Positions 3,219 to 50,610 of a DNA stretch of 51,228 nucleotides are shown piece by piece (the first letter of the stretch is position 1; every line of letters starts with the position of its first letter). The notes under the pieces were generated by a model. The model was given only the letters and a program-made list of their open reading frames with translations, had not been told where the DNA came from and did not search any database. Location: positions 137,780 through 189,007 of the forward strand of contig CAZBWM010000002.1 in assembly GCA_964495375.1 (NCBI GenBank), in the 5' to 3' direction. This stretch comes from an uncultured Planctomycetaceae bacterium (GTDB lineage Bacteria; Planctomycetota; Planctomycetia; Pirellulales; JAEUIK01). The position numbers and the translations under genes were made by a program.

Positions 3219-3643
3219 TGCAAATGCGATTGCTGCCATTGGCGGCCATGGCCGCGGTTTGGCTGGCCAGCGCCAGTTCCACACTGGCCCAAGAAACCGG
3301 CCGCAAGCCGCTGATCTACGGTGGCGACATCTCGATGGGCGAACTGACGCCGACGCCAGAGATGTGGTTCTATCAGCAGGAGCTGCGGCAGTTCCAGGAC
3401 CCGCACGCGATGGTTCGCCGCAGGGCCGAGGCCAAAGCCGCGCAGCGCCACGCCCGCATCGAATCGTCAGCCTGGTTCGGCGTCTACAACTCGCGCCCGA
3501 CGACGCAGTACACGCCATTTATGGGGGGCACCTACGGCCCGGCGTTTGGTGGCAGCCGCGACTTCAATCGCTGGTATCCGAGCCATCGCCCGATGATCTT
3601 CTTGCGGACCGGCTCGACCGGCTCGAGCTTCGGGCTGTGGTAA
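3219..3643 (+). CDS. hypothetical secreted protein
   Basis: An internal ATG preceded by GGGAGG gives MQMRLLPLAAMAAVWLASASSTLAQE, a signal peptide ending in the AxA-like cleavage motif. The longer upstream start adds a non-protein-like Arg-rich extension. No family recognised. Confidence 0.5.
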
Positions 3644-8178: not shown

Positions 8179-8673
8179 GGCGGCAGTATTGCGGCTCGTC
8201 GTTGCAGGCGTGTCACAGTTCGCAGGTCGCAATCTACCGTGTCGCGCCCCGCCGTGGCATGGGCTTCCAGCCCATGCGCGATGCGTTTCGCGGGGGGGAT
8301 ACGTGACAAACACGGCCAGGATGGCCATGCCACGAGCGTGCCAAAGGTGTCAGGAACCACCTTCGACGACGTGCAGGGCACACGGGACCGTCGCGCGCTC
8401 GGCGGTTCCAGACACCGAACCCCCTGCTGGCAAACCCTTCCTCGCCGCTAGCAAGGCAGCCATCTGCTAGCGCGAAATAGTCCGGTCAGCTAAACCTTGC
8501 CGGCGTGACCGTAACGACTGCGTCGAGTTTGCGGGCGTCGACGTAAATCGTTGGCACGGCACTTCATCCGTACAACCGATCCAGCCGATACGCCCGGTAG
8601 GGTCGGCACGTTCGGCACGAGCGTGCGCGCTGGCCTGATCGCGTCAAACGGACCCAGCCAAGGGATCGCACGG

Positions 8674-9717
8674 ATGCAACGGCCGCTCCTGAAAGTCGCC
8701 TGCCTGTTGGCCATCGCCGCCGCGCTGGTGGGCTGCAAGAACCCGATCCAGATGCGCACGTCGGGGCGGATCGTGGCCGAGATGCCGCCGCAGAACAATA
8801 TCTCGCCGGTGCTTCCAGGGCAGGTGCTCAATACGGGGACCGAGTCGGCCCAACGCATCGCGATCATCGACGTCGACGGGCTGCTGTTGAACATGGACAT
8901 GGTCGGCCCCTCGTCGCATGGCGAGAACCCTGTGTCGCTGTTCCGCGAGAAGCTCGACGCGGCCGCTTGCGACCCCTGCGTGCGGGCGGTCGTGGTCCGC
9001 ATCAATAGCCCCGGTGGCGGCGTGACCGCGACCGACATCATGTGGCACGATCTCGAAGCATTCAAAAATCGCACGGGCCGCCCCGTCGTGGCTTGCCTGC
9101 TGGATGTCGGCACCGGGGGTTCGTATTACCTGGCGACCGCGGCCGACCAGATTGTCGCCAATCCGATCACAATCACCGGCGGCATCGGCGTCATCCTGAA
9201 TCTCTACGACCTGACTGGCGCGATGGCTGAAAGCCAGGGACGCGTCTACAACCTCGCGGTCAAGGCCGGCGACAACATCGACCTGGGGAGCGGTATGGCT
9301 CCGCTCCCCGAGGAGAAGCGCCGCCTGCTGCAAGAGATGGCCAACGAGATGCATCGGCGGTTTCGCGACGTCGTGCTCGAGGCTCGGCCGCAGGTCAACG
9401 CCGACGACAAAACGAACTTCGATGGCCGCGTGTTCACCGCCGCGCAAGCGCTCGAACGCGGCTTGATCGACGAGATCGGCTACCTCGACGACGCGGTCGC
9501 GGCGGCCGAAGGTCTGGCGGGCATCGCGGGCGCCAACGTGGTGCTCTACCACCGCAAGAACGATCCGCCGCGCTCGCTCTATGCCGTGACGCCGAACGTG
9601 CCGCTGCAAGGGGGTGCCATCCTCCCCGGCATGCCCGGCATGGATCGCAGTCGCATGCCGACGCTGCTCTACCTGTGGCAGCCGGAGCCGACCTTGGAAA
9701 AACTGGGCGGGCGGTAG
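8674..9717 (+). CDS. sppA: signal peptide peptidase SppA-like lipoprotein (S49, 36K type), copy 1
   Basis: Lipobox LVGC after MQRPLLKVACLLAIAAA. S49 core RAVVVRINSPGGGVTATD...GTGGSYYLATAAD...ITGGIGVILN. Confidence 0.8.
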   Translation: MQRPLLKVACLLAIAAALVGCKNPIQMRTSGRIVAEMPPQNNISPVLPGQVLNTGTESAQRIAIIDVDGLLLNMDMVGPSSHGENPVSLFREKLDAAACDPCVRAVVVRINSPGGGVTATDIMWHDLEAFKNRTGRPVVACLLDVGTGGSYYLATAADQIVANPITITGGIGVILNLYDLTGAMAESQGRVYNLAVKAGDNIDLGSGMAPLPEEKRRLLQEMANEMHRRFRDVVLEARPQVNADDKTNFDGRVFTAAQALERGLIDEIGYLDDAVAAAEGLAGIAGANVVLYHRKNDPPRSLYAVTPNVPLQGGAILPGMPGMDRSRMPTLLYLWQPEPTLEKLGGR

Positions 9718-9791
9718 GTTGTCCAGGAGTTGATCGAAGAACTGTAGCCGGCGTCAGTGAAGCCGAAGTATCGCGGGATGGAACCCAGGCC

Positions 9792-11069
9792 ATGAATCGA
9801 ACGCTGCAACATCGTCGCGCACTGATGCTCTGCCTCTTCGCGGTGGCGAGTCTGGCCACCGGCTGCAAGAATTGCTGCCTTTCGATGCGTACCAGCGGCC
9901 GGATCGTCAACGAGTCGCCGCCGCAGAACAATATCTCGCCCGTCGTGCCCAATCGCGTGCCGCTCACGGGGCAGTGCGAAGGTCGCCGCGTGGCGATCAT
10001 CGACGTCGATGGCCTGTTGTTGAACGCGGATATGGTGGGCCCGTCTTCGCACGGCGAAAACCCAGTGTCGCTGTTCCGCGAAAAGCTCGAGGCGGCCGCC
10101 GCCGATCCCTGTGTGCGGGCCGTCGTGGTCCGCGTCAACAGCCCGGGTGGTGGCGCCGCCGCGAGCGACATCATGCGGCACGATCTGCTGGCCTACAAAC
10201 AACGCACCGGCATCCCGGTCGTGGCCTGTATTCTCGATCTCGGGACGGGCGGAGCGTATTACCTGGCGACCGCCGCCGACACGATCGTCGCCCACCCCAC
10301 GAGCATCACCGGTGGCATCGGCGTGATCCTCAACCTGTATGGGCTGTGGGATGGCATGCAGGCCCAATCCGTGCTTCCGCGCAACATAGTCGCGGGGGAC
10401 ATGATCGACATGGGAAGCGCGATCCTGCCGCCAGGGCTCGACGACGAATCAACCGATGAGTCGCCTGAAGAATCCGCTACAGAATTAAATGTGGAACCGG
10501 CCGAAACGATTCCGCCTCCCGAAGACACAATGCCCGAAGACACAGCGCCCGAAGCTGGCGGTGGCGACGATGCCGCTGCGCCTGCCGAGTTGGTCGCGCC
10601 GGCCAAGGCGGCCGCAATCGGCGAGCCGTTGTCGCCTGAAGGCGGGACCGGCTTCACCAAGCAGAAGCGGGCTCTGCTGAAGCAGATGGCCGACGACTTT
10701 CACACACGCTTCCGCGAGGCGGTCTCGGCCGCGCGACCGCTGCACGAGGCCGAACTGGAGACCGACTTCGATGGTCGCGTTTTCACGGCCACTCAGGCGC
10801 GCGAGCGCGGGCTGATCGACGAGATCGGTTACCTCGACGAAGCAATCCGGATCGCCGAAGGGATGGCCGGCCTCAACGGGGCGACCGTCGTCTTCTATCA
10901 CCGCAAGAACGACCCCGCCCGCTCGCCGTATGCCATCACGCCTAACGTGCCGCTGCAAGGGGCGGGCATCCTGCCAATCAGCACGCCGGGCCGCGAGCGC
11001 ACCCGGTTGCCGATGTTCCTCTTCATGTGGCAGCCCGAGCCGATGATGGAAAAACTCAGCGGGCGATAG
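9792..11069 (+). CDS. sppA: SppA-like lipoprotein (S49), copy 2, with acidic low-complexity insert
   Basis: Lipobox LATGC. Same S49 core as copy 1 but with GTGGAYYLATAAD (Ala where copy 1 has Ser). Carries an ~80-aa Asp/Glu/Pro-rich insert (DDESTDESPEESATELNVEPAETIPPPEDTMPEDTAPEAGGGDD...). Confidence 0.8.
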   Translation: MNRTLQHRRALMLCLFAVASLATGCKNCCLSMRTSGRIVNESPPQNNISPVVPNRVPLTGQCEGRRVAIIDVDGLLLNADMVGPSSHGENPVSLFREKLEAAAADPCVRAVVVRVNSPGGGAAASDIMRHDLLAYKQRTGIPVVACILDLGTGGAYYLATAADTIVAHPTSITGGIGVILNLYGLWDGMQAQSVLPRNIVAGDMIDMGSAILPPGLDDESTDESPEESATELNVEPAETIPPPEDTMPEDTAPEAGGGDDAAAPAELVAPAKAAAIGEPLSPEGGTGFTKQKRALLKQMADDFHTRFREAVSAARPLHEAELETDFDGRVFTATQARERGLIDEIGYLDEAIRIAEGMAGLNGATVVFYHRKNDPARSPYAITPNVPLQGAGILPISTPGRERTRLPMFLFMWQPEPMMEKLSGR

Positions 11070-11191
11070 GCCGGGGCGTGAGGTCCTTCGTATGCCAGCC
11101 ATTGCATTCGGCCAGCCGCAGTGTTCAATTCCGGCATGCGCGGCGCGCGGTTTTGCGTCGCGCCCGATCCTGTGAATTGGGACATTTTGCC

Positions 11192-18620: not shown

Positions 18621-19398
18621 GCGACTGTTGCCCGGCAGCCATTGCAGGGCTACAGCACGAAATCCGTCGACAAATGACCAGATCCACGGCGCGTTGAGTT
18701 TGCTGCGGACGGTGAACGTTTCCTTGCGAAGCGTCGCCAGCCGTTTTCCTCCGGGCCAGCGCGATCGGATAAGTCCGTCGATGGCTTTTTCGGCCAACGC
18801 CAGCGTTGCGCGCCGGAGACGAGTGTCGCTCCGGCGTCGGTGTCTGGAACCGCCGAGCCGGCCGAGCACATGTCGGCGCCGATCCACCGGCAAGCCAGTG
18901 GCACACGAAGCCAAACAACAGCGACCTGTTCTCCCCTTAGGACCCGACGCAAATGCGTTCAACGGGTCGGTTCGGCGAGTCCGTTCGCCTTGTGCGCGGA
19001 CCATTAGAAATTGCATCCATAGAAACGCACAGAAGAGCGCAGAAGGATCGAGGCCGAGCTACCCGCGCCCCGATGCCAACTTCTGTGTCCTTCGGCGAAC
19101 TGCTGTGAATTGACCACGGATTTCACCGATTGCACGGATTGATTTCGCGGCTTGATTCAATCATCCGTGCAATCCGTGTCATCCGTGGTCCAAAGCTTCG
19201 GACGTAAAACTGCGATCTTGGACGCAAGCCGGACGCAAACGTTTTCAGTTTGCGTCCAAGAATAAGTCCCGACACCACAGAGCCTTAGCTGCGTGGAGCA
19301 CGAACTTTGGACGGTTTGGACGCAAATTCCCGGAACACTTTATTGGGGAGGCCCCCCACGCGCTTGCGACTGCGTGATGTGCGTTTCAGAATGGCCCG

Positions 19399-31262: not shown

Positions 31263-31524
31263 TGCTCGCGGCTACGGCTTGCTCGGTCCTGCTGCGGAGG
31301 CGGTTCCGGAAGCCATAGCGGTCGATCTCAATTACCTGGATCGCTGAGATCGATTTCCAGGGGGACGCTAATGCGTTCTGTTCGAACGTTGGTAAGAGAA
31401 TCGAGTCGACGGTGCTCACGACGCCTTGCGGAGTCGCGTGACGAGACTTTTCGCGACCCGAGCGCGCAGCATCAGCGCAGTTGACTGCGGAGAAGGGCAC
31501 ACGGCTATGCCGCTTTGCGGTGGT

Positions 31525-31611
31525 AGTGCTTGAGCAACCCGCCGAGCTTTCGTACGTGGGCAGTCAAAGCCGAAATAACCGCACCACTTAATAGCAAAAG
31601 GTCGGTTTTCG
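31525..31611. repeat. dispersed ~85-bp repeat, copy A
   Basis: AGTGCTTGA...(43 nt)...AACCGCACCACTTAATAGCAAAAGGTCGGTTTTCG matches copy B at 46612-46696 (about 30 of 36 positions in the core, same spacing). Confidence 0.6.
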
Positions 31612-32179
31612 CGTTCAGTTCCTTTGCCGCAGTCCAGTCGTCGCGGCGCTCGCAGTTACCAGCGCCTACTGCAGCCCAGCTTCGCTGGACCAGGACAGCG
31701 GGGTGCCAAGAGGGTGCATGGAGGGTTCAAGGAATTTAGCTTCGGGGTCCATTCGCGTATTTTGGTGGTCTCGACCGTAGAAACTTGTGTGCAAACACCA
31801 AGGCTGCAAATGTCACATAGCAACCGGTGGCCAAGACTCCGAAAAGTGCCCAGTCCGCTCACCATTGAGAGTCAGCCAAAACAAGACGGGCAGGAATACT
31901 AACGTGCCTCCGCTAGAAGTTGGAAGTACATGCTCTCGGAACCAAATCCGGCCGAGTGTTGTTTTGCCCGTAGCGTAGGGATAGATCTCCTATTCCGATT
32001 TTCTCGGCAGTCGCCACCAACTCGTCGCGGAAACGAAAATGCGACCGTATACTACCGCGCTCAAACCAGAAGGCGCCAAGCGCAACCGCGCATGAAGAAC
32101 CCCGCCGAGACTCGGGTGAGCGACCGTCGGGGGTGTCGTGGTCCAACGAATGTTTGCCACAGCGATCAAGGACCAAGCC

Positions 32180-33310
32180 ATGCGGCGCCAAATCTACCTC
32201 GATTTCAATGGCTCAACGCCGATCGCACGAGAAGTCCTCGTAGCGATGCAACCGCACATGGTTGCCAGTTTCGGCAACCCGTCGAGCGGTCACTGGGCCG
32301 CCCAGCCGGCTCACGATGCGGTCGAGCGGGCTCGCGGGCAAGTCGCGGCGCTGATCGGTTGCCAAGCGACCGAAGTCACCTTCACGTCCGGCGGAACTGA
32401 AGCCAACAACCAGGCCTTGAAAGGTGTCTGCTGGGCGAAGAAAGATAGCGTTGCCAAGCCACATTTCGTCGCCTCGGCAATCGAGCATCCAGCGATCCTG
32501 GCCCCACTGCGGTTCCTTGAGCGCCTCGGCGCTGAGGTAACGATCGTCGGTGTTGACCGATTCGGATGCGTCGATCCGGATGATATCCGCCGCGTGATAC
32601 GGGCCAATACAGTGCTCGTCTCCGTGATGCATGCCAACAACGAAGTCGGCACGATTCAGCCCATCGCCGAGATCGGTGCGATTTCCCGTGACCGCGGCGT
32701 GCTGTTTCACACGGACGCGGCACAGAGCCTCGGCAAGATCGCGGTCGACGTGGATGCCTTGCAAGTCGATCTGCTGTCGATCGCCGGCCACAAGCTCTAT
32801 GCGCCCAAAGGAGTTGGCGCTCTCTATGTCCGTGAAGGTACGGGTCTGGAGAGCTTGTTGCACGGTGGCAACCACGAGGCAGGTCGCCGAGCCGGGACAG
32901 AGAGTGCCTTGCTCACCGCGGGACTCGGCGCCGCGTGCGAGGTGAGTCGGCATTGGCTCGCGAGCGAGAGCATCCTGAAGCTGCGAGAGCTGTTTTGGGG
33001 CTTGCTACAGGAGAGCTGCGGAGACGCCGTGGTGCTCAACGGTCATCCAACGCAAAGATTGCCCAATACGCTCAACGTCAGCTTTGTCGGATGCGATGGT
33101 GGTGCGTTACTGGCGCGGTTGGAGGAAGTTGCCGCGTCGACTGGCTCGGCATGCCACTCCGGGGACACGAGCGGAAGCCCGGTGCTGGCCGCAATGGGCG
33201 TAAGTCCGCAGGTGGCAGCCGGCGCGATCCGCTTCAGCCTCGGCCGATCAACCAGCGAGGATGAGATTCGCGACGTCGTTACGCGACTGCGAGGCGCACT
33301 TTCCAGCTAA
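32180..33310 (+). CDS. cysteine desulfurase (class V aminotransferase, IscS/NifS-like); possible selenocysteine lyase partner of SelD
   Basis: RRQIYLDFNGSTP...TSGGTEANN...HTDAAQSLGKI...SIAGHKLYAPKGVGALYV includes the PLP-Lys motif and the active-site Cys loop (GSACHSG). Confidence 0.85.
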   Translation: MRRQIYLDFNGSTPIAREVLVAMQPHMVASFGNPSSGHWAAQPAHDAVERARGQVAALIGCQATEVTFTSGGTEANNQALKGVCWAKKDSVAKPHFVASAIEHPAILAPLRFLERLGAEVTIVGVDRFGCVDPDDIRRVIRANTVLVSVMHANNEVGTIQPIAEIGAISRDRGVLFHTDAAQSLGKIAVDVDALQVDLLSIAGHKLYAPKGVGALYVREGTGLESLLHGGNHEAGRRAGTESALLTAGLGAACEVSRHWLASESILKLRELFWGLLQESCGDAVVLNGHPTQRLPNTLNVSFVGCDGGALLARLEEVAASTGSACHSGDTSGSPVLAAMGVSPQVAAGAIRFSLGRSTSEDEIRDVVTRLRGALSS

Positions 33311-38049: not shown

Positions 38050-39474
<1,425 letters not shown>

Positions 39475-39552
39475 TTCTAGGTTCCTTGCCATTGCCTAAA
39501 ATAAGACTGGCAAAGTTGAGTGGTGTGATTGGGTCCACTGGTTGAACTATAA

Positions 39553-39649
39553 GGGAGTGTCAGTACGCCTGGTGGCGGCCGCGGGCTTCAAACCCGTTGT
39601 GGGGTCTGTCAAACAAACCCTAGGTGGGTTCGATTCCCATCCACTCCCG
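39553..39649 (+). tRNA. selC: tRNA-Sec (selC, anticodon UCA)
   Basis: Lies 78 nt after selA. 8-bp acceptor GGGAGTGT/CCACTCCC with one terminal mismatch. Anticodon stem GCGGG/CCCGT with loop CTTCAAA (UCA). Long variable arm GGGGT...ACCCT. T-arm GTGGG-TTCGATT-CCCAT. ~97 nt. Confidence 0.7.
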
Positions 39650-44650: not shown

Positions 44651-45780
44651 ATGACATACAAGCCAACCAGGCAGATCTTGCGGCACGTTTTTGAGCAACT
44701 GCCGGGGCTTGGGGCTCGATCGCGCGTCATTCAGAGCTGGTTGCTGGCCCTCTGGGTTCTTTTGGTCGTCAGTTTTTTTCGGCCGCATGCCACTTACGCG
44801 GCGATCATCGTGACCCCACTGCCGGGCGGTCAGGCCCACGCTGTGGCGGACGGCATCTTCGGACCCGTCGACGAGCAACGGACCCTTAGCGCAGGACTGA
44901 GCGGTAGTGTCTCGGCATCTACAACTGGCGCGAGTGCCAATGCATTCTGGTCAATCACAAGCCAAGGCGCAACGTTCGGCACAAAAGCCACAGGCACCTT
45001 GGGGGTCGCGACTTCTAGGGCATATACGGAGATTCGCTACTCTCTGGCATCAACTACCAATGGGCCGATCCGTTTTCGTCCTACCGGCTTTGGTTGCATC
45101 AATACGTATGTCGACGCATATGGCGGCCCTTACGAACAATCCGGGTCCGCTGTTTGGACTTACGGGGATTATTTTCCTGGAGAGCCCGAGAACCCCAAGG
45201 GGTACGACGGTCCAGGAATTTATGTTCCTGAGGGAGATGATGAGCCGGACGTCAAGCGAGGAGCGATAACAGCAAACGATACAACAGGGGACTACCTCAC
45301 TTCTCTGCCCGTCGAAGATAGCTATGGCGTGACAGCGCCGGTCTATTTTGGCAACCAGCCAGCGGCGCTCGCCCTGGCAGCTAGCGATAATCCGAGTCCG
45401 AATGTGGTCGGCTATTACTTTAGCTCGTGGGCGATGCTTCTATCAGTTCCTTCGTCACTCCTGACGGCATCCCCGGCGAGGGGAGCGAGATATCGATTAG
45501 TTTCGGGGACATGTCGGTCCCCTATTTACCAGGCACGACTAACTCGTTCAGTACGCCAGTGACGACGTTCTGGCTCTTGGGGCTTGACCCGATGGTGATG
45601 CCCAGCCACGGCCCGGCGCCTTTCGTGCACGGCCTGACGTTTACCGAAGCGGGGCCGGCACTGGTTGGTCACGGGGCACTGGTCGCCGTGCCTGAGCCCA
45701 GCACAGCAGCGATGGCTGCGGTGGGCCTCGGCGTACTGTGCCTGGCCCGTGTGAAAAACCGTCGCTATACGGCCGGTTGA
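44651..45780 (+). pseudogene. PEP-CTERM protein disrupted by a -1 frameshift near 45424-45440
   Basis: Frame 1 (44651..45562) supplies the signal peptide and body and then degenerates into non-protein-like sequence. Frame 2 (from 45427) continues with protein-like sequence ending in the PEP-CTERM motif VAVPEPSTAAMAAVGLGVLCLARVKNRRY. Confidence 0.55.
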
Positions 45781-45795
45781 ACAATCCTCTCTTAC

Positions 45796-46620
45796 ATGCA
45801 TTCGCTTCGGAGAAACGCTCGTGACTCGGAAACTCCTCGCCCTCCGCCCGATCGCGTCGTGGAATACGAAATCGCCGGAGTCATCTCACTGCCGGGCTGG
45901 CACCTGATCACCAAAGGAGGCTTGCGTACTCGCCATGTCCGATCGGCGGCGCTGGTAATCGCACCGCTGGCCGACGTGCGCCGCGATTTCGGCATCGACC
46001 GTATCCGTTTCCTTTCGCTCAATCTTGACGACGACGCAAGCAAGGAGCAGTTCCAGTCTTCGCTCCAGGCGATCGTGACCGCTGGCCAGGCGAACGACGC
46101 CGGGCCAGAGCGGTCGCAACGCGGTGGTCGCGGAGCGAAAGCTCGACTGCAATCGACGCGCGAACTACGGCAAGTCATTCGTGTGCGATCCGACAGCATC
46201 ATTTGGGGTCTCAGCAAATTGCCGCTCGTCAGGTTGCTGGTCGCCACCTTGGGAGTGGTGGGCACCGTCGTTTCCTCCGTCCGCGTGCGACGCTGGGATT
46301 TCGGCGTGCTCAGGGCGCTCGGCGTCACCCGCTTGGCGCTAATGCGATTGATCGTAGCCGAGGCGCTACTCGTCGGACTGGCGGCTTGCCTGTTGAGCTT
46401 CGGCCTTGGCGCGATGGCGGGTTACTGCGGGAGCGAAGTGACTAGCTACGTTGACGAGCACGGCGGATCGATCACGCCGTTTGTGGTCCCTTGGAGCAAA
46501 TTGGCCATCGGCTTTGGCACTGCGCTGTCCATTTGCCTGGTGGCCGCCCTCGGGCCAGCAATCCACGCGGGGCGTAGTGAGCCACTCGATTTGCTGAGGG
46601 CCGGTCGCGCGAGTGCTTGA
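45796..46620 (+). pseudogene. FtsX/MacB-like ABC permease, C-terminal fragment only
   Basis: Contains the distal periplasmic domain plus three C-terminal TM helices (RVRRWDFGVLRALGVTRLALMRLIVAEALLVGLAACLLSFGLG...). The N-terminal TM1 and ~200 aa are absent, and no upstream continuation exists in any frame. Confidence 0.45.
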
Positions 46621-46696
46621 AACTCATCCGAATGGAATGCTCCGCGCTCCTAGCGTCTACAACCGACCCACTCGATAGCAAAAGGGTCGATGTTCG
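46612..46696. repeat. dispersed ~85-bp repeat, copy B
   Basis: AGTGCTTGA...(40 nt)...AACCGACCCACTCGATAGCAAAAGGGTCGATGTTCG. It begins at the stop codon of the permease fragment. Confidence 0.6.
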
Positions 46697-46826
46697 GAGC
46701 CATGCCGCGACAGGGGATTGACGGGACATCGCCACGCCAGGCAGTTACGAAGGCAGCGGGCTTCCAGTAGTATTTGACCAGTTCCGTTCCTGGTACCCTG
46801 GCGTTTTCTGTTCTGGAGAAAATCAC

Positions 46827-50534: not shown

Positions 50535-50610
50535 GCCGGGACGGGAGTCGAACCCGTTACAGCCAGATTCGCAGTCTGGTGCTCTACCGTTGAGCTACCC
50601 TCTCGGGCAT
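50535..50610 (-). other. tRNA-like element with intact D-, anticodon- and T-arms but a non-pairing acceptor stem
   Basis: Minus-strand D-arm GCTC-AACGGTA-GAGC, anticodon arm CCAGA-CTGCGAA-TCTGG (anticodon would be GCG), T-arm ACGGG-TTCGACT-CCCGT. The 5' GCCCGAG and 3' CCCGGCG do not pair. Confidence 0.4.

What the first reader, a model, noticed from the sequence alone, without database searches (positions are those of the whole stretch)
31525..31611. Dispersed ~85-bp repeat present twice (31525-31611 and 46612-46696), both in non-coding DNA
Both copies share AGTGCTTGA, a 40-43-nt spacer, and then AACCG..CCACT..ATAGCAAAAGG(G)TCG.T.TTCG. Copy B begins at the stop codon of the truncated permease. 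Copy A also begins with a tiny ORF ending ...GGSA-TGA. So A may be a fossil of a duplicated permease 3' end plus its downstream element. Alternatively both could be a conserved small-RNA or terminator module, or a MITE end. Copy A lies in the GC-poor tract upstream of the sel cluster.
Basis: seen in the sequence. Interest (0 to 1): 0.5.

Follow-up and report, generated by a model that had tools for sequence, protein, structure and literature searches.

The report
Decayed insertion-sequence transposase gene ends
The two ~85-bp look-alike stretches are worn-down leftovers of the tail end of a jumping-gene (insertion sequence) transposase gene lying on the opposite strand, an ordinary kind of genomic debris and not a small RNA, terminator or permease fossil.

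Summary

Statistics inside the window cannot separate this pair from chance. Outside sequences settle it.

Read on the minus strand, copy A encodes ...KTDLLLLSGAVISALTAHVRKLGGLLKHYHRKAA*. RLGGLLKHYYR.AA* ends a multi-copy DDE transposase family (HTH_32 + rve/rve_3, nearest NCBIfam model IS481). This family is common in Planctomycetota.

Window 31413-31547 matches the 3' end of such an element in a Pirellulales MAG at 82% over 135 nt (E 4e-33). The match also covers 92 nt past the stop codon.

The 9-mer is the antisense of the L-K-H-Y codons. The block is the linker just upstream of them.

Copy B keeps about 51 nt (46648-46698). These are homologous to a third relic found in another metagenome (L033). 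B's spacer is unrelated, and its 9-mer is also the permease's last codons, so that match may be coincidence.

No Rfam hit, no covariation, no terminator, no terminal inverted repeats and no permease trace at copy A. Verdict: ordinary IS debris in lineage-specific DNA; low interest.

The parts
31413..31504 (-). Relic A, part 1: the non-coding sequence that follows the transposase stop codon inside the insertion sequence (IS 3' region). The rest of the IS end is missing.
   Evidence: blastn places window 31413-31547 against L037 907-773 at 82% over 135 nt, E 4e-33. The same region also matches L036 and L070. Similarity to L037 stops near 31413, while L037 and L036b stay alike for about 120 nt more.
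31505..31642 (-). Relic A, part 2: the last ~44 codons plus the stop (31505-31507) of a DDE (rve/rve_3) transposase gene. It reads DDWTAAKELNAKTDLLLLSGAVISALTAHVRKLGGLLKHYHRKAA*.
   Evidence: Translation is. tblastn of 60+ family proteins hits 31508-31552 at up to 93% identity. The best extended hit is L077, 44 aa at 43%, reaching 31639, E 6e-5. blastn matches about 60 gene 3' ends at 75-91%.
31525..31533 (-).
   Evidence: the same codons occur in nearly all 80 loci.
31577..31611 (-).
   Evidence: Alignment with the family tails (KTTNELPPLDVVPIS...) is. The DNA version of this block is shared only with L033 983-1018 and copy B.
46648..46698 (-). Relic B: about 51 nt homologous to the linker part of the same IS lineage. 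In the same minus frame as A it reads ..TSTLLLSSGSVV.. No transposase C-terminal motif is left.
   Evidence: Against L033 968-1020, 26 of the 35 positions not forced by the search pattern are identical (P about 8e-8). blastn gives 89% over 38 nt.
46612..46620 (.). The 9-mer in copy B. It is the last three codons (S-A-stop, preceded by A) of the FtsX permease remnant. It sits where the IS L-K-H-Y codons would be (spacer 40 = 43-3), but homology is not demonstrable.
   Evidence: The intervening 46621-46647 is unrelated to A or L033 (p 0.8-0.9). Permease homologues also end three codons after the conserved AGR/QGR.
45796..46620 (+). Context: a 5'-truncated FtsX-type permease remnant abutting relic B.
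   Evidence: Pfam FtsX. In relatives the homologues are the C-terminal part of much larger permeases next to ABC ATPase genes.

Best explanation
Both copies are non-functional, decayed remnants of the 3' end of an insertion sequence whose transposase gene ran on the minus strand. The IS belongs to a multi-copy family of HTH_32 + rve/rve_3 DDE transposases, IS481-like, that is widespread in Planctomycetota.

Copy A (about 31413-31640) keeps the last ~44 codons, the stop codon and about 92 nt of the element's downstream non-coding sequence. Copy B keeps only about 51 nt of the linker-coding part.

Inferred:
- The similarity between A and B reflects common descent from one IS lineage, not any function at these sites.
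- The relics mark old insertions in lineage-specific, rearranged DNA.
For: (1) The metagenome pattern scan found a third copy, L033 912-1018, homologous to A over 110 nt including the spacer.

(2) The minus-strand frame of A reads ...VRKLGGLLKHYHRKAA*. A second L033 relic reads ...CKQRLGGLLKHYYRQAA*.

(3) A scan of GTDB genomes for LGGLL[KE]H[YN][YH] gave 205 stretches, of which 167 were confirmed. Most are Planctomycetota, often several per genome. The motif is always at the C-terminus of 350-460-aa ORFs, or of truncated ones.

(4) Full-length members carry HTH_32 + rve/rve_3. Their best NCBIfam model is the IS481 family transposase. RefSeq plasmid homologues are annotated 'integrase core domain-containing protein'.

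(5) Window 31413-31547 versus L037 gives 82% over 135 nt, E 4e-33, running 92 nt past the stop (alignment). About 60 further gene ends match 31503-31552.

(6) tblastn of the family against the whole window hits the transposase C-terminus at copy A only, apart from one weak stray hit at 39434-39556, E 0.007.

(7) B versus L033-1 shares 26/35 non-forced identities, P about 8e-8.

(8) Both sites lie in DNA with no counterpart in close relatives. Synteny with the 90%-identical relative stops exactly at 32179. The cytochrome c neighbourhood is not conserved. Copy B abuts a truncated permease and a frameshifted PEP-CTERM gene.

(9) Planctomycetes are reported among IS-rich phyla (PMC9208149).
Against: Copy B has no recognisable transposase motif and no tblastn hit. 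Its assignment rests on one 51-nt similarity to another relic, L033-1, which was itself found with a pattern derived from A and B.

B's 27 nt between the block and the 9-mer are unrelated to A and L033. Uniform neutral decay would not predict that.

No intact parent carrying the same linker version was found: phmmer of the A relic against 1.84 billion representatives gave 0 hits. The block version is seen only in relics.

No terminal inverted repeat or target-site duplication could be defined.

The rest of the source genome could not be searched. The source contig was not among the hits of either collection scan.
Confidence: 0.83

Rival explanations
1. Copy A is an IS relic, but its resemblance to copy B is coincidence. 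On this view B is just unrelated intergenic DNA after a permease remnant.
For: Within-window statistics do not reject chance. B gives no tblastn hit to the transposase family. B's spacer is unrelated to A and L033. B's 9-mer is native-looking permease coding sequence, because homologues also stop three codons after AGR.
Against: B matches the independent relic L033-1 at 26/35 positions not forced by the search pattern (P about 8e-8). The match includes shared states absent from A: TGTTCGGA and TC.TAGC. The block lies in the same minus frame as in A, with a 3-nt spacer difference.
Confidence: 0.08
2. The copies are members of a non-autonomous, MITE-like derivative of the IS that has spread as a short element.
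For: Three short copies (A, B, L033-1) share a linker version not seen in any intact gene retrieved. All three lie in non-coding DNA. A 14-nt inverted repeat, 31483-96/31621-34, brackets copy A.
Against: Homology of A to the IS continues beyond that inverted repeat, to 31413. No inverted repeat exists at B. The copies have different extents (A ~230 nt, L033-1 ~110 nt, B ~51 nt) and no common ends. Only two copies occur in 57 kb, 20% diverged. The right flanks are not similar.
Confidence: 0.05
3. The block is a functional RNA or DNA module, such as a small RNA, a hairpin, a terminator or a regulator binding site, that is conserved by selection.
For: Both copies can form a 6-9-bp hairpin with a shared 14-nt loop ACTNNATAGCAAAA. 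The block is the best-preserved part of three otherwise decayed relics.
Against: No Rfam hit at E up to 10. Fold z-scores range from -0.4 to -1.8. There are no compensatory pairs, 4 of 10 pairs are broken in one copy, and the covariation term is +1.33. No terminator-like or promoter-like site is present. The motif is absent from the corresponding regions of relatives. The high block identity in L033 is partly forced by how L033 was found.
Confidence: 0.03
4. One reading: copy A is a fossil of a duplicated permease 3' end together with its downstream element.
For: Both copies start with AGTGCTTGA, which in B ends the permease ORF. A tiny ORF at A also ends ...GGSA-TGA.
Against: There are stops in the frame upstream of A and no tblastn similarity to the permease. 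In A the 9-mer is part of a 135-nt match to IS 3' ends on the other strand. The neighbouring genes are not paralogues.
Confidence: 0.01

Closest known systems
IS481-family (and the related IS3-family) insertion sequences with DDE 'integrase core' (rve/rve_3) transposases
   Same: Full-length relatives of the relic carry HTH_32 + rve/rve_3. They score best against NCBIfam NF033577 (IS481 family transposase), with IS3 second. They are multi-copy within genomes. RefSeq homologues are annotated 'integrase core domain-containing protein'.
   Different: Scores of 93-103 bits are far below the curated IS481 cutoff of 224, so the family is IS481-like rather than a curated member. The window holds only the last ~44 codons plus downstream sequence, with no catalytic domain. 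Terminal inverted repeats were not defined.
Solo IS remnants / transposase pseudogene fragments in bacterial genomes
   Same: Short, frame-damaged or truncated pieces of a transposase gene lie in non-coding, poorly conserved DNA next to other pseudogenes and at synteny breaks. Truncated copies of 25-100 codons are also common among the GTDB loci.
   Different: Nothing notable, apart from the fact that the two relics here share a linker version not yet seen in an intact copy.
MITEs (miniature inverted-repeat transposable elements)
   Same: Short, dispersed, IS-derived DNA in intergenic regions.
   Different: There are no shared termini, no terminal inverted repeats common to the copies and no target-site duplications. 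The copies have different lengths and 20% divergence.

Membership tests
IS481-like rve/rve_3 DDE transposase IS (relic of) | C-terminal protein motif ...C..RLGGLLKHYYR.AA followed by a stop | tested here: met
   Copy A reads VRKLGGLLKHYHRKAA*, compared with 80 loci. Copy B does not have it: it reads IRMSFKHSRDR.
IS481-like rve/rve_3 DDE transposase IS (relic of) | Nucleotide similarity to the 3' end of intact family members, including non-coding sequence beyond the stop | tested here: met
   A: 31413-47 versus L037 gives 82% over 135 nt, E 4e-33, plus about 60 other gene ends. B matches only the relic L033-1.
IS481-like rve/rve_3 DDE transposase IS (relic of) | DDE catalytic core (rve/rve_3) and N-terminal HTH present (intact element) | tested here: not met
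   tblastn of the family against the window finds only the last 14-44 codons at A. These are remnants, not an element.
IS481-like rve/rve_3 DDE transposase IS (relic of) | Full-length relatives reach the curated IS481 family score | tested here: not met
   NF033577 scores 93-103 bits against a cutoff of 224, and IS3 scores 46-76 against 160. The assignment is therefore 'IS481-like', not curated membership.
IS481-like rve/rve_3 DDE transposase IS (relic of) | Terminal inverted repeats and target-site duplication | tested here: inconclusive
   L036a, L036b and L037 share a common end ...GATTTGCACAGGRCG about 190 nt past the stop. No matching left end was found. A lacks that end.
IS481-like rve/rve_3 DDE transposase IS (relic of) | Multiple copies per genome | tested here: met
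   Several loci per MAG, e.g. CAWKBR010000002, CAWDWE, JAVJSD and JAJDEG. L033 holds three copies or relics. The source genome itself could not be scanned.
MITE | Terminal inverted repeats shared by the copies, and common termini | tested here: not met
Known RNA family / structured sRNA | Rfam covariance-model match, or covariation supporting a conserved fold | tested here: not met
   No Rfam hit at E up to 10. 0 of 10 pairs are compensatory.
Intrinsic terminator | GC-rich stem with a short loop followed by a T-run | tested here: not met
   No site at either copy. The hairpin loop is 14 nt and no T-run follows in B.

The most novel reading that the evidence does not exclude
The 36-50-nt block survives at 80-92% identity in three otherwise eroded relics from two organisms, and it has not been seen in any intact transposase gene. 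It might be an exapted functional module, for example a hairpin or protein-binding site. Alternatively it might be the core of a short non-autonomous element derived from the IS, rather than neutral debris.
Probability: 0.05. Interest if true: 0.35.

Novelty: new member of a known kind. Interest (0 to 1): 0.08.

Why it matters
It matters little beyond annotation.

It accounts for part of the odd 917-nt gene-free tract upstream of the selenocysteine gene cluster. It also explains the debris after the truncated permease: these are traces of past IS activity, consistent with the loss of synteny at both places.

It is also a useful caution. A short 'dispersed repeat in non-coding DNA' should be translated on both strands before RNA or regulatory roles are proposed. 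Here the apparent 9-mer-plus-block architecture is simply two better-preserved patches of one antisense reading frame.

Tried and rejected
Searches of known RNA and terminator signals
- Rfam at gathering and at E=10 thresholds found nothing at either copy.
- The promoter/terminator scan found nothing at either copy.
- Single-sequence folds were unremarkable. The alignment fold showed no covariation.

Collection scans
- Genome contigs with AACCGNNCCACTNNATAGCAAAAGG gave 0 hits.
- Viral contigs with the 16-base core gave 8 unrelated phage coding hits.
- The metagenome scan gave 8 hits, only one of them related (L033). The source contig was not among the hits.

Orthologous loci
- Permease homologues at about 50% identity are not syntenic and carry no motif.
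- The NifS-like relative at 90% loses synteny at the gene start, and its intergenic tract cannot be aligned.
- Cytochrome c relatives at 80-86% are not syntenic upstream.
- All contigs carrying the exact flanking proteins are identical, so there is no strain variation to exploit.

Tests around the two copies
- Permease fossil and methyltransferase fossil upstream of A: no tblastn signal.
- Paralogy of the two upstream PEP-CTERM genes: none.
- The 74-aa ORF after B has no homologue in relatives' loci.
- An nhmmer profile of the block against 56.6 kb found no third copy.

My first minus-strand frame
- PFAIKWCGY... was the wrong frame. Pfam and NCBIfam gave nothing for it, and tblastn of a 24-aa peptide against plasmids was uninformative.

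Other negatives
- phmmer of the 57-aa A relic against 1.84 billion representatives gave 0 hits.
- A left inverted repeat of the IS was not found.
- One look-up failed because the ORF start differed from the called gene.

Full report
OBSERVATION

The two copies are exactly as described:
- The exact 9-mer AGTGCTTGA lies at 31525-31533 and 46612-46620.
- The spacers are 43 and 40 nt and cannot be aligned.
- A 35/36-nt block lies at 31577-31611 and 46661-46696, with 29/36 identical and one indel.

Copy B's 9-mer is the last three codons plus the stop of ORF 45796-46620, a Pfam FtsX permease. Copy A lies in a 917-nt tract (31263-32179) in which neither my ORF listing nor the JGI gene calls find a gene.

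IS IT MORE THAN CHANCE?

From the window alone, I could not show that.
- With +1/-1 scoring the block scores 31.1 bits, and 39 non-self HSPs in the window score at least as high.
- In an all-against-all comparison of about 7 kb of intergenic DNA, the A/B local score (22) ranks third. The maximum of 32% of dinucleotide shuffles reaches it.
- A collinear exact 9-mer within 100 nt accompanies 1.3% of the other (non-A/B) HSPs. The two-part match is therefore suggestive, not compelling.
- A profile of the block finds no third copy in the window plus 5.4 kb of extension.

WHAT IT IS NOT

- Rfam gives nothing at either site even at E=10.
- There is no terminator-like or sigma-70-like site at either copy.
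- Both blocks can form a 6-9-bp hairpin with a shared 14-nt loop, but fold energies are within about 1-2 sd of shuffles.
- With three copies, none of the 10 consensus pairs is compensatory, four are broken in one copy, and the covariation term is unfavourable.
- The permease-fossil idea fails for copy A. The frame has stops and tblastn of the permease finds nothing. Permease homologues in other Planctomycetota carry nothing similar after their stops. The two upstream PEP-CTERM genes are not paralogues.

CONTEXT

The window comes from a 204,898-bp JGI metagenome contig. By its best protein relatives it is a Pirellulales planctomycete.

Both copies sit in DNA without counterparts in relatives:
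- A relative whose NifS-like gene is 90% identical at the nucleotide level loses all similarity exactly at that gene's start, window 32179.
- The cytochrome c gene downstream of copy B has different upstream neighbours in relatives at 80-86% identity.
- Copy B abuts a permease ORF that is only the C-terminal ~270 aa of what is a much larger protein elsewhere. Beside that is a frameshifted PEP-CTERM gene.

THE KEY RESULT

A single metagenome scan with CGNNCCACTNNATAGCAAAAGG returned eight hits. Seven are unrelated. One, L033 (GC 0.60), is homologous to copy A across 110 nt including the spacer. L033 also has a second, partial match (3252-3295) to the left part of copy A.

Translating the minus strand explains both:
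- The second L033 copy ends ...VRCKQRLGGLLKHYYRQAA*.
- Copy A reads, in one unbroken frame, DDWTAAKELNAKTDLLLLSGAVISALTAHVRKLGGLLKHYHRKAA*, with its stop at 31505-31507.

A scan of GTDB species genomes for LGGLL[KE]H[YN][YH] found 205 stretches, of which 167 were confirmed. Most are Planctomycetota (Pirellulales, Gemmataceae, Phycisphaerae), often several per genome. The motif is always the extreme C-terminus of ORFs of 350-460 aa, or of truncated ones down to 25 codons.

Full-length members have HTH_32 + rve/rve_3 domains. Their best NCBIfam model is the IS481 family transposase, at 93-103 bits against a cutoff of 224, with IS3 second. RefSeq plasmid homologues are annotated 'integrase core domain-containing protein'.

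HOW COPY A FITS

- tblastn of the family hits the window at 31508-31552 on the minus strand at up to 93% identity. The best extended hit runs to 31639 (44 aa, 43%, E 6e-5). The only other hit in the window is one weak stray match at 39434-39556, E 0.007.
- At the DNA level about 60 transposase gene ends match 31503-31552 at 75-91%.
- The closest element, in Pirellulales MAG JAIESQ01, matches 31413-31547 at 82% over 135 nt, E 4e-33. That is 92 nt beyond the stop, into the element's own downstream sequence. Similarity to that element ends near 31413, about 120 nt short of the element's apparent end.

So relic A spans about 31413-31640.

HOW COPY B FITS

In the same minus frame copy B reads AWLRTSTLLLSSGSVVDARSAEHSIRMSFKHSRDRPSA. 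Its spacer is one codon shorter than A's.

Its block region (46648-46698) is homologous to L033 968-1020. Of the 35 aligned positions not forced by my search pattern, 26 are identical (P about 8e-8), including states that B shares with L033 but not with A.

Three points weaken the case for the rest of copy B:
- The 27 nt between the block and the 9-mer are unrelated to A or L033 (p 0.8-0.9).
- The LGGLL codons are gone.
- The 9-mer coincides with the native-looking end of the permease, whose homologues also stop three codons after AGR/QGR.

I therefore treat the block in B as a genuine IS relic (about 0.8). Whether the 9-mer in B is homologous or coincidental I leave at roughly even odds. The flanks to the right of the block are not similar among the copies.

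MECHANISM

Shown: A is a truncated 3' piece of an IS481-like element on the minus strand. B shares about 51 nt with the same lineage.

Inferred: an element of this family inserted at, or was carried to, both places and was then eroded by deletions and substitutions. The A/B resemblance is common descent, not function. The IS activity plausibly contributed to the local loss of synteny and to the neighbouring pseudogenes. Planctomycetes are reported among the IS-rich phyla (PMC9208149).

UNRESOLVED

- The linker version shared by A, B and L033-1 was not found in any intact gene.
- phmmer of the A relic against 1.84 billion representatives found nothing.
- The IS termini are undefined.

A MITE-like derivative or an exapted module is therefore not strictly excluded. 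However, the copies share no ends and no inverted repeats and have different extents.

VERDICT

Interest is low.

Noticed in passing
window 44651-45780: A PEP-CTERM-type gene appears frameshifted. A 303-aa ORF (44651-45562) is followed by an overlapping ORF in another frame (45427-45780) that carries the VPEPS...membrane anchor. JGI calls two genes there.
   Followed up: partly
window 45796-46620: The FtsX permease ORF is only the C-terminal ~270 aa of a protein that in relatives is much larger and sits next to an ABC ATPase gene. Neither the N-terminal part nor the ATPase is present here, so it is probably a 5'-truncated pseudogene.
   Followed up: partly
window 32179 (start of the NifS-like gene 32180-33310): Nucleotide similarity (90%) to a congeneric metagenome contig (L008) begins exactly at this gene's start. 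Everything upstream differs: here a giant 1947-aa protein and a PEP-CTERM gene, there redoxin genes. This is a sharp synteny breakpoint.
   Followed up: partly
window 32180-33310 and relatives P0018-P0038: Most relatives of the NifS-like/selenocysteine-lyase-like protein at about 70-76% identity are 645-650 aa, with N-terminal methyltransferase domains fused on. This genome has the short 376-aa form and no trace of the extra domain upstream.
   Followed up: partly
   Followed up: partly
window 8397-8418 and 18837-18858: A perfect 22-nt inverted pair (GCTCGGCGGTTCCAGACACCGA) with arms 10.4 kb apart.
   Followed up: no
window 19112-19190: A 28-nt-arm hairpin (89% complementary, 23-nt loop) in the intergenic tract 19017-19398.
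   Followed up: no
window 8652-9292 vs 9783-10419, and 9305-9718 vs 10654-11070: Tandem paralogous gene pair, about 72% identical at the DNA level.
   Followed up: no
window 50538-50600 (-): The tRNA model match covers only model positions 5-66 of 71. It may be a truncated or unusual tRNA.
   Followed up: no
L033 912-1018, 3256-3730, 5670-6470: This 6.5-kb metagenome contig carries three copies or relics of the same transposase family. The largest, about 250 codons, runs off the contig end. It comes from a sample series that also yielded the 90%-identical relative (L010).
   Followed up: partly
L036 4090-5155, L037 812-1000: The sequence downstream of the transposase stop in intact elements contains an internally repeated module (GATGCYGCGCGC...CGTTTCGCGGTTCCG...CTTCGTC). 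In L037 the element ends next to what looks like a tRNA gene 3' end.
   Followed up: no
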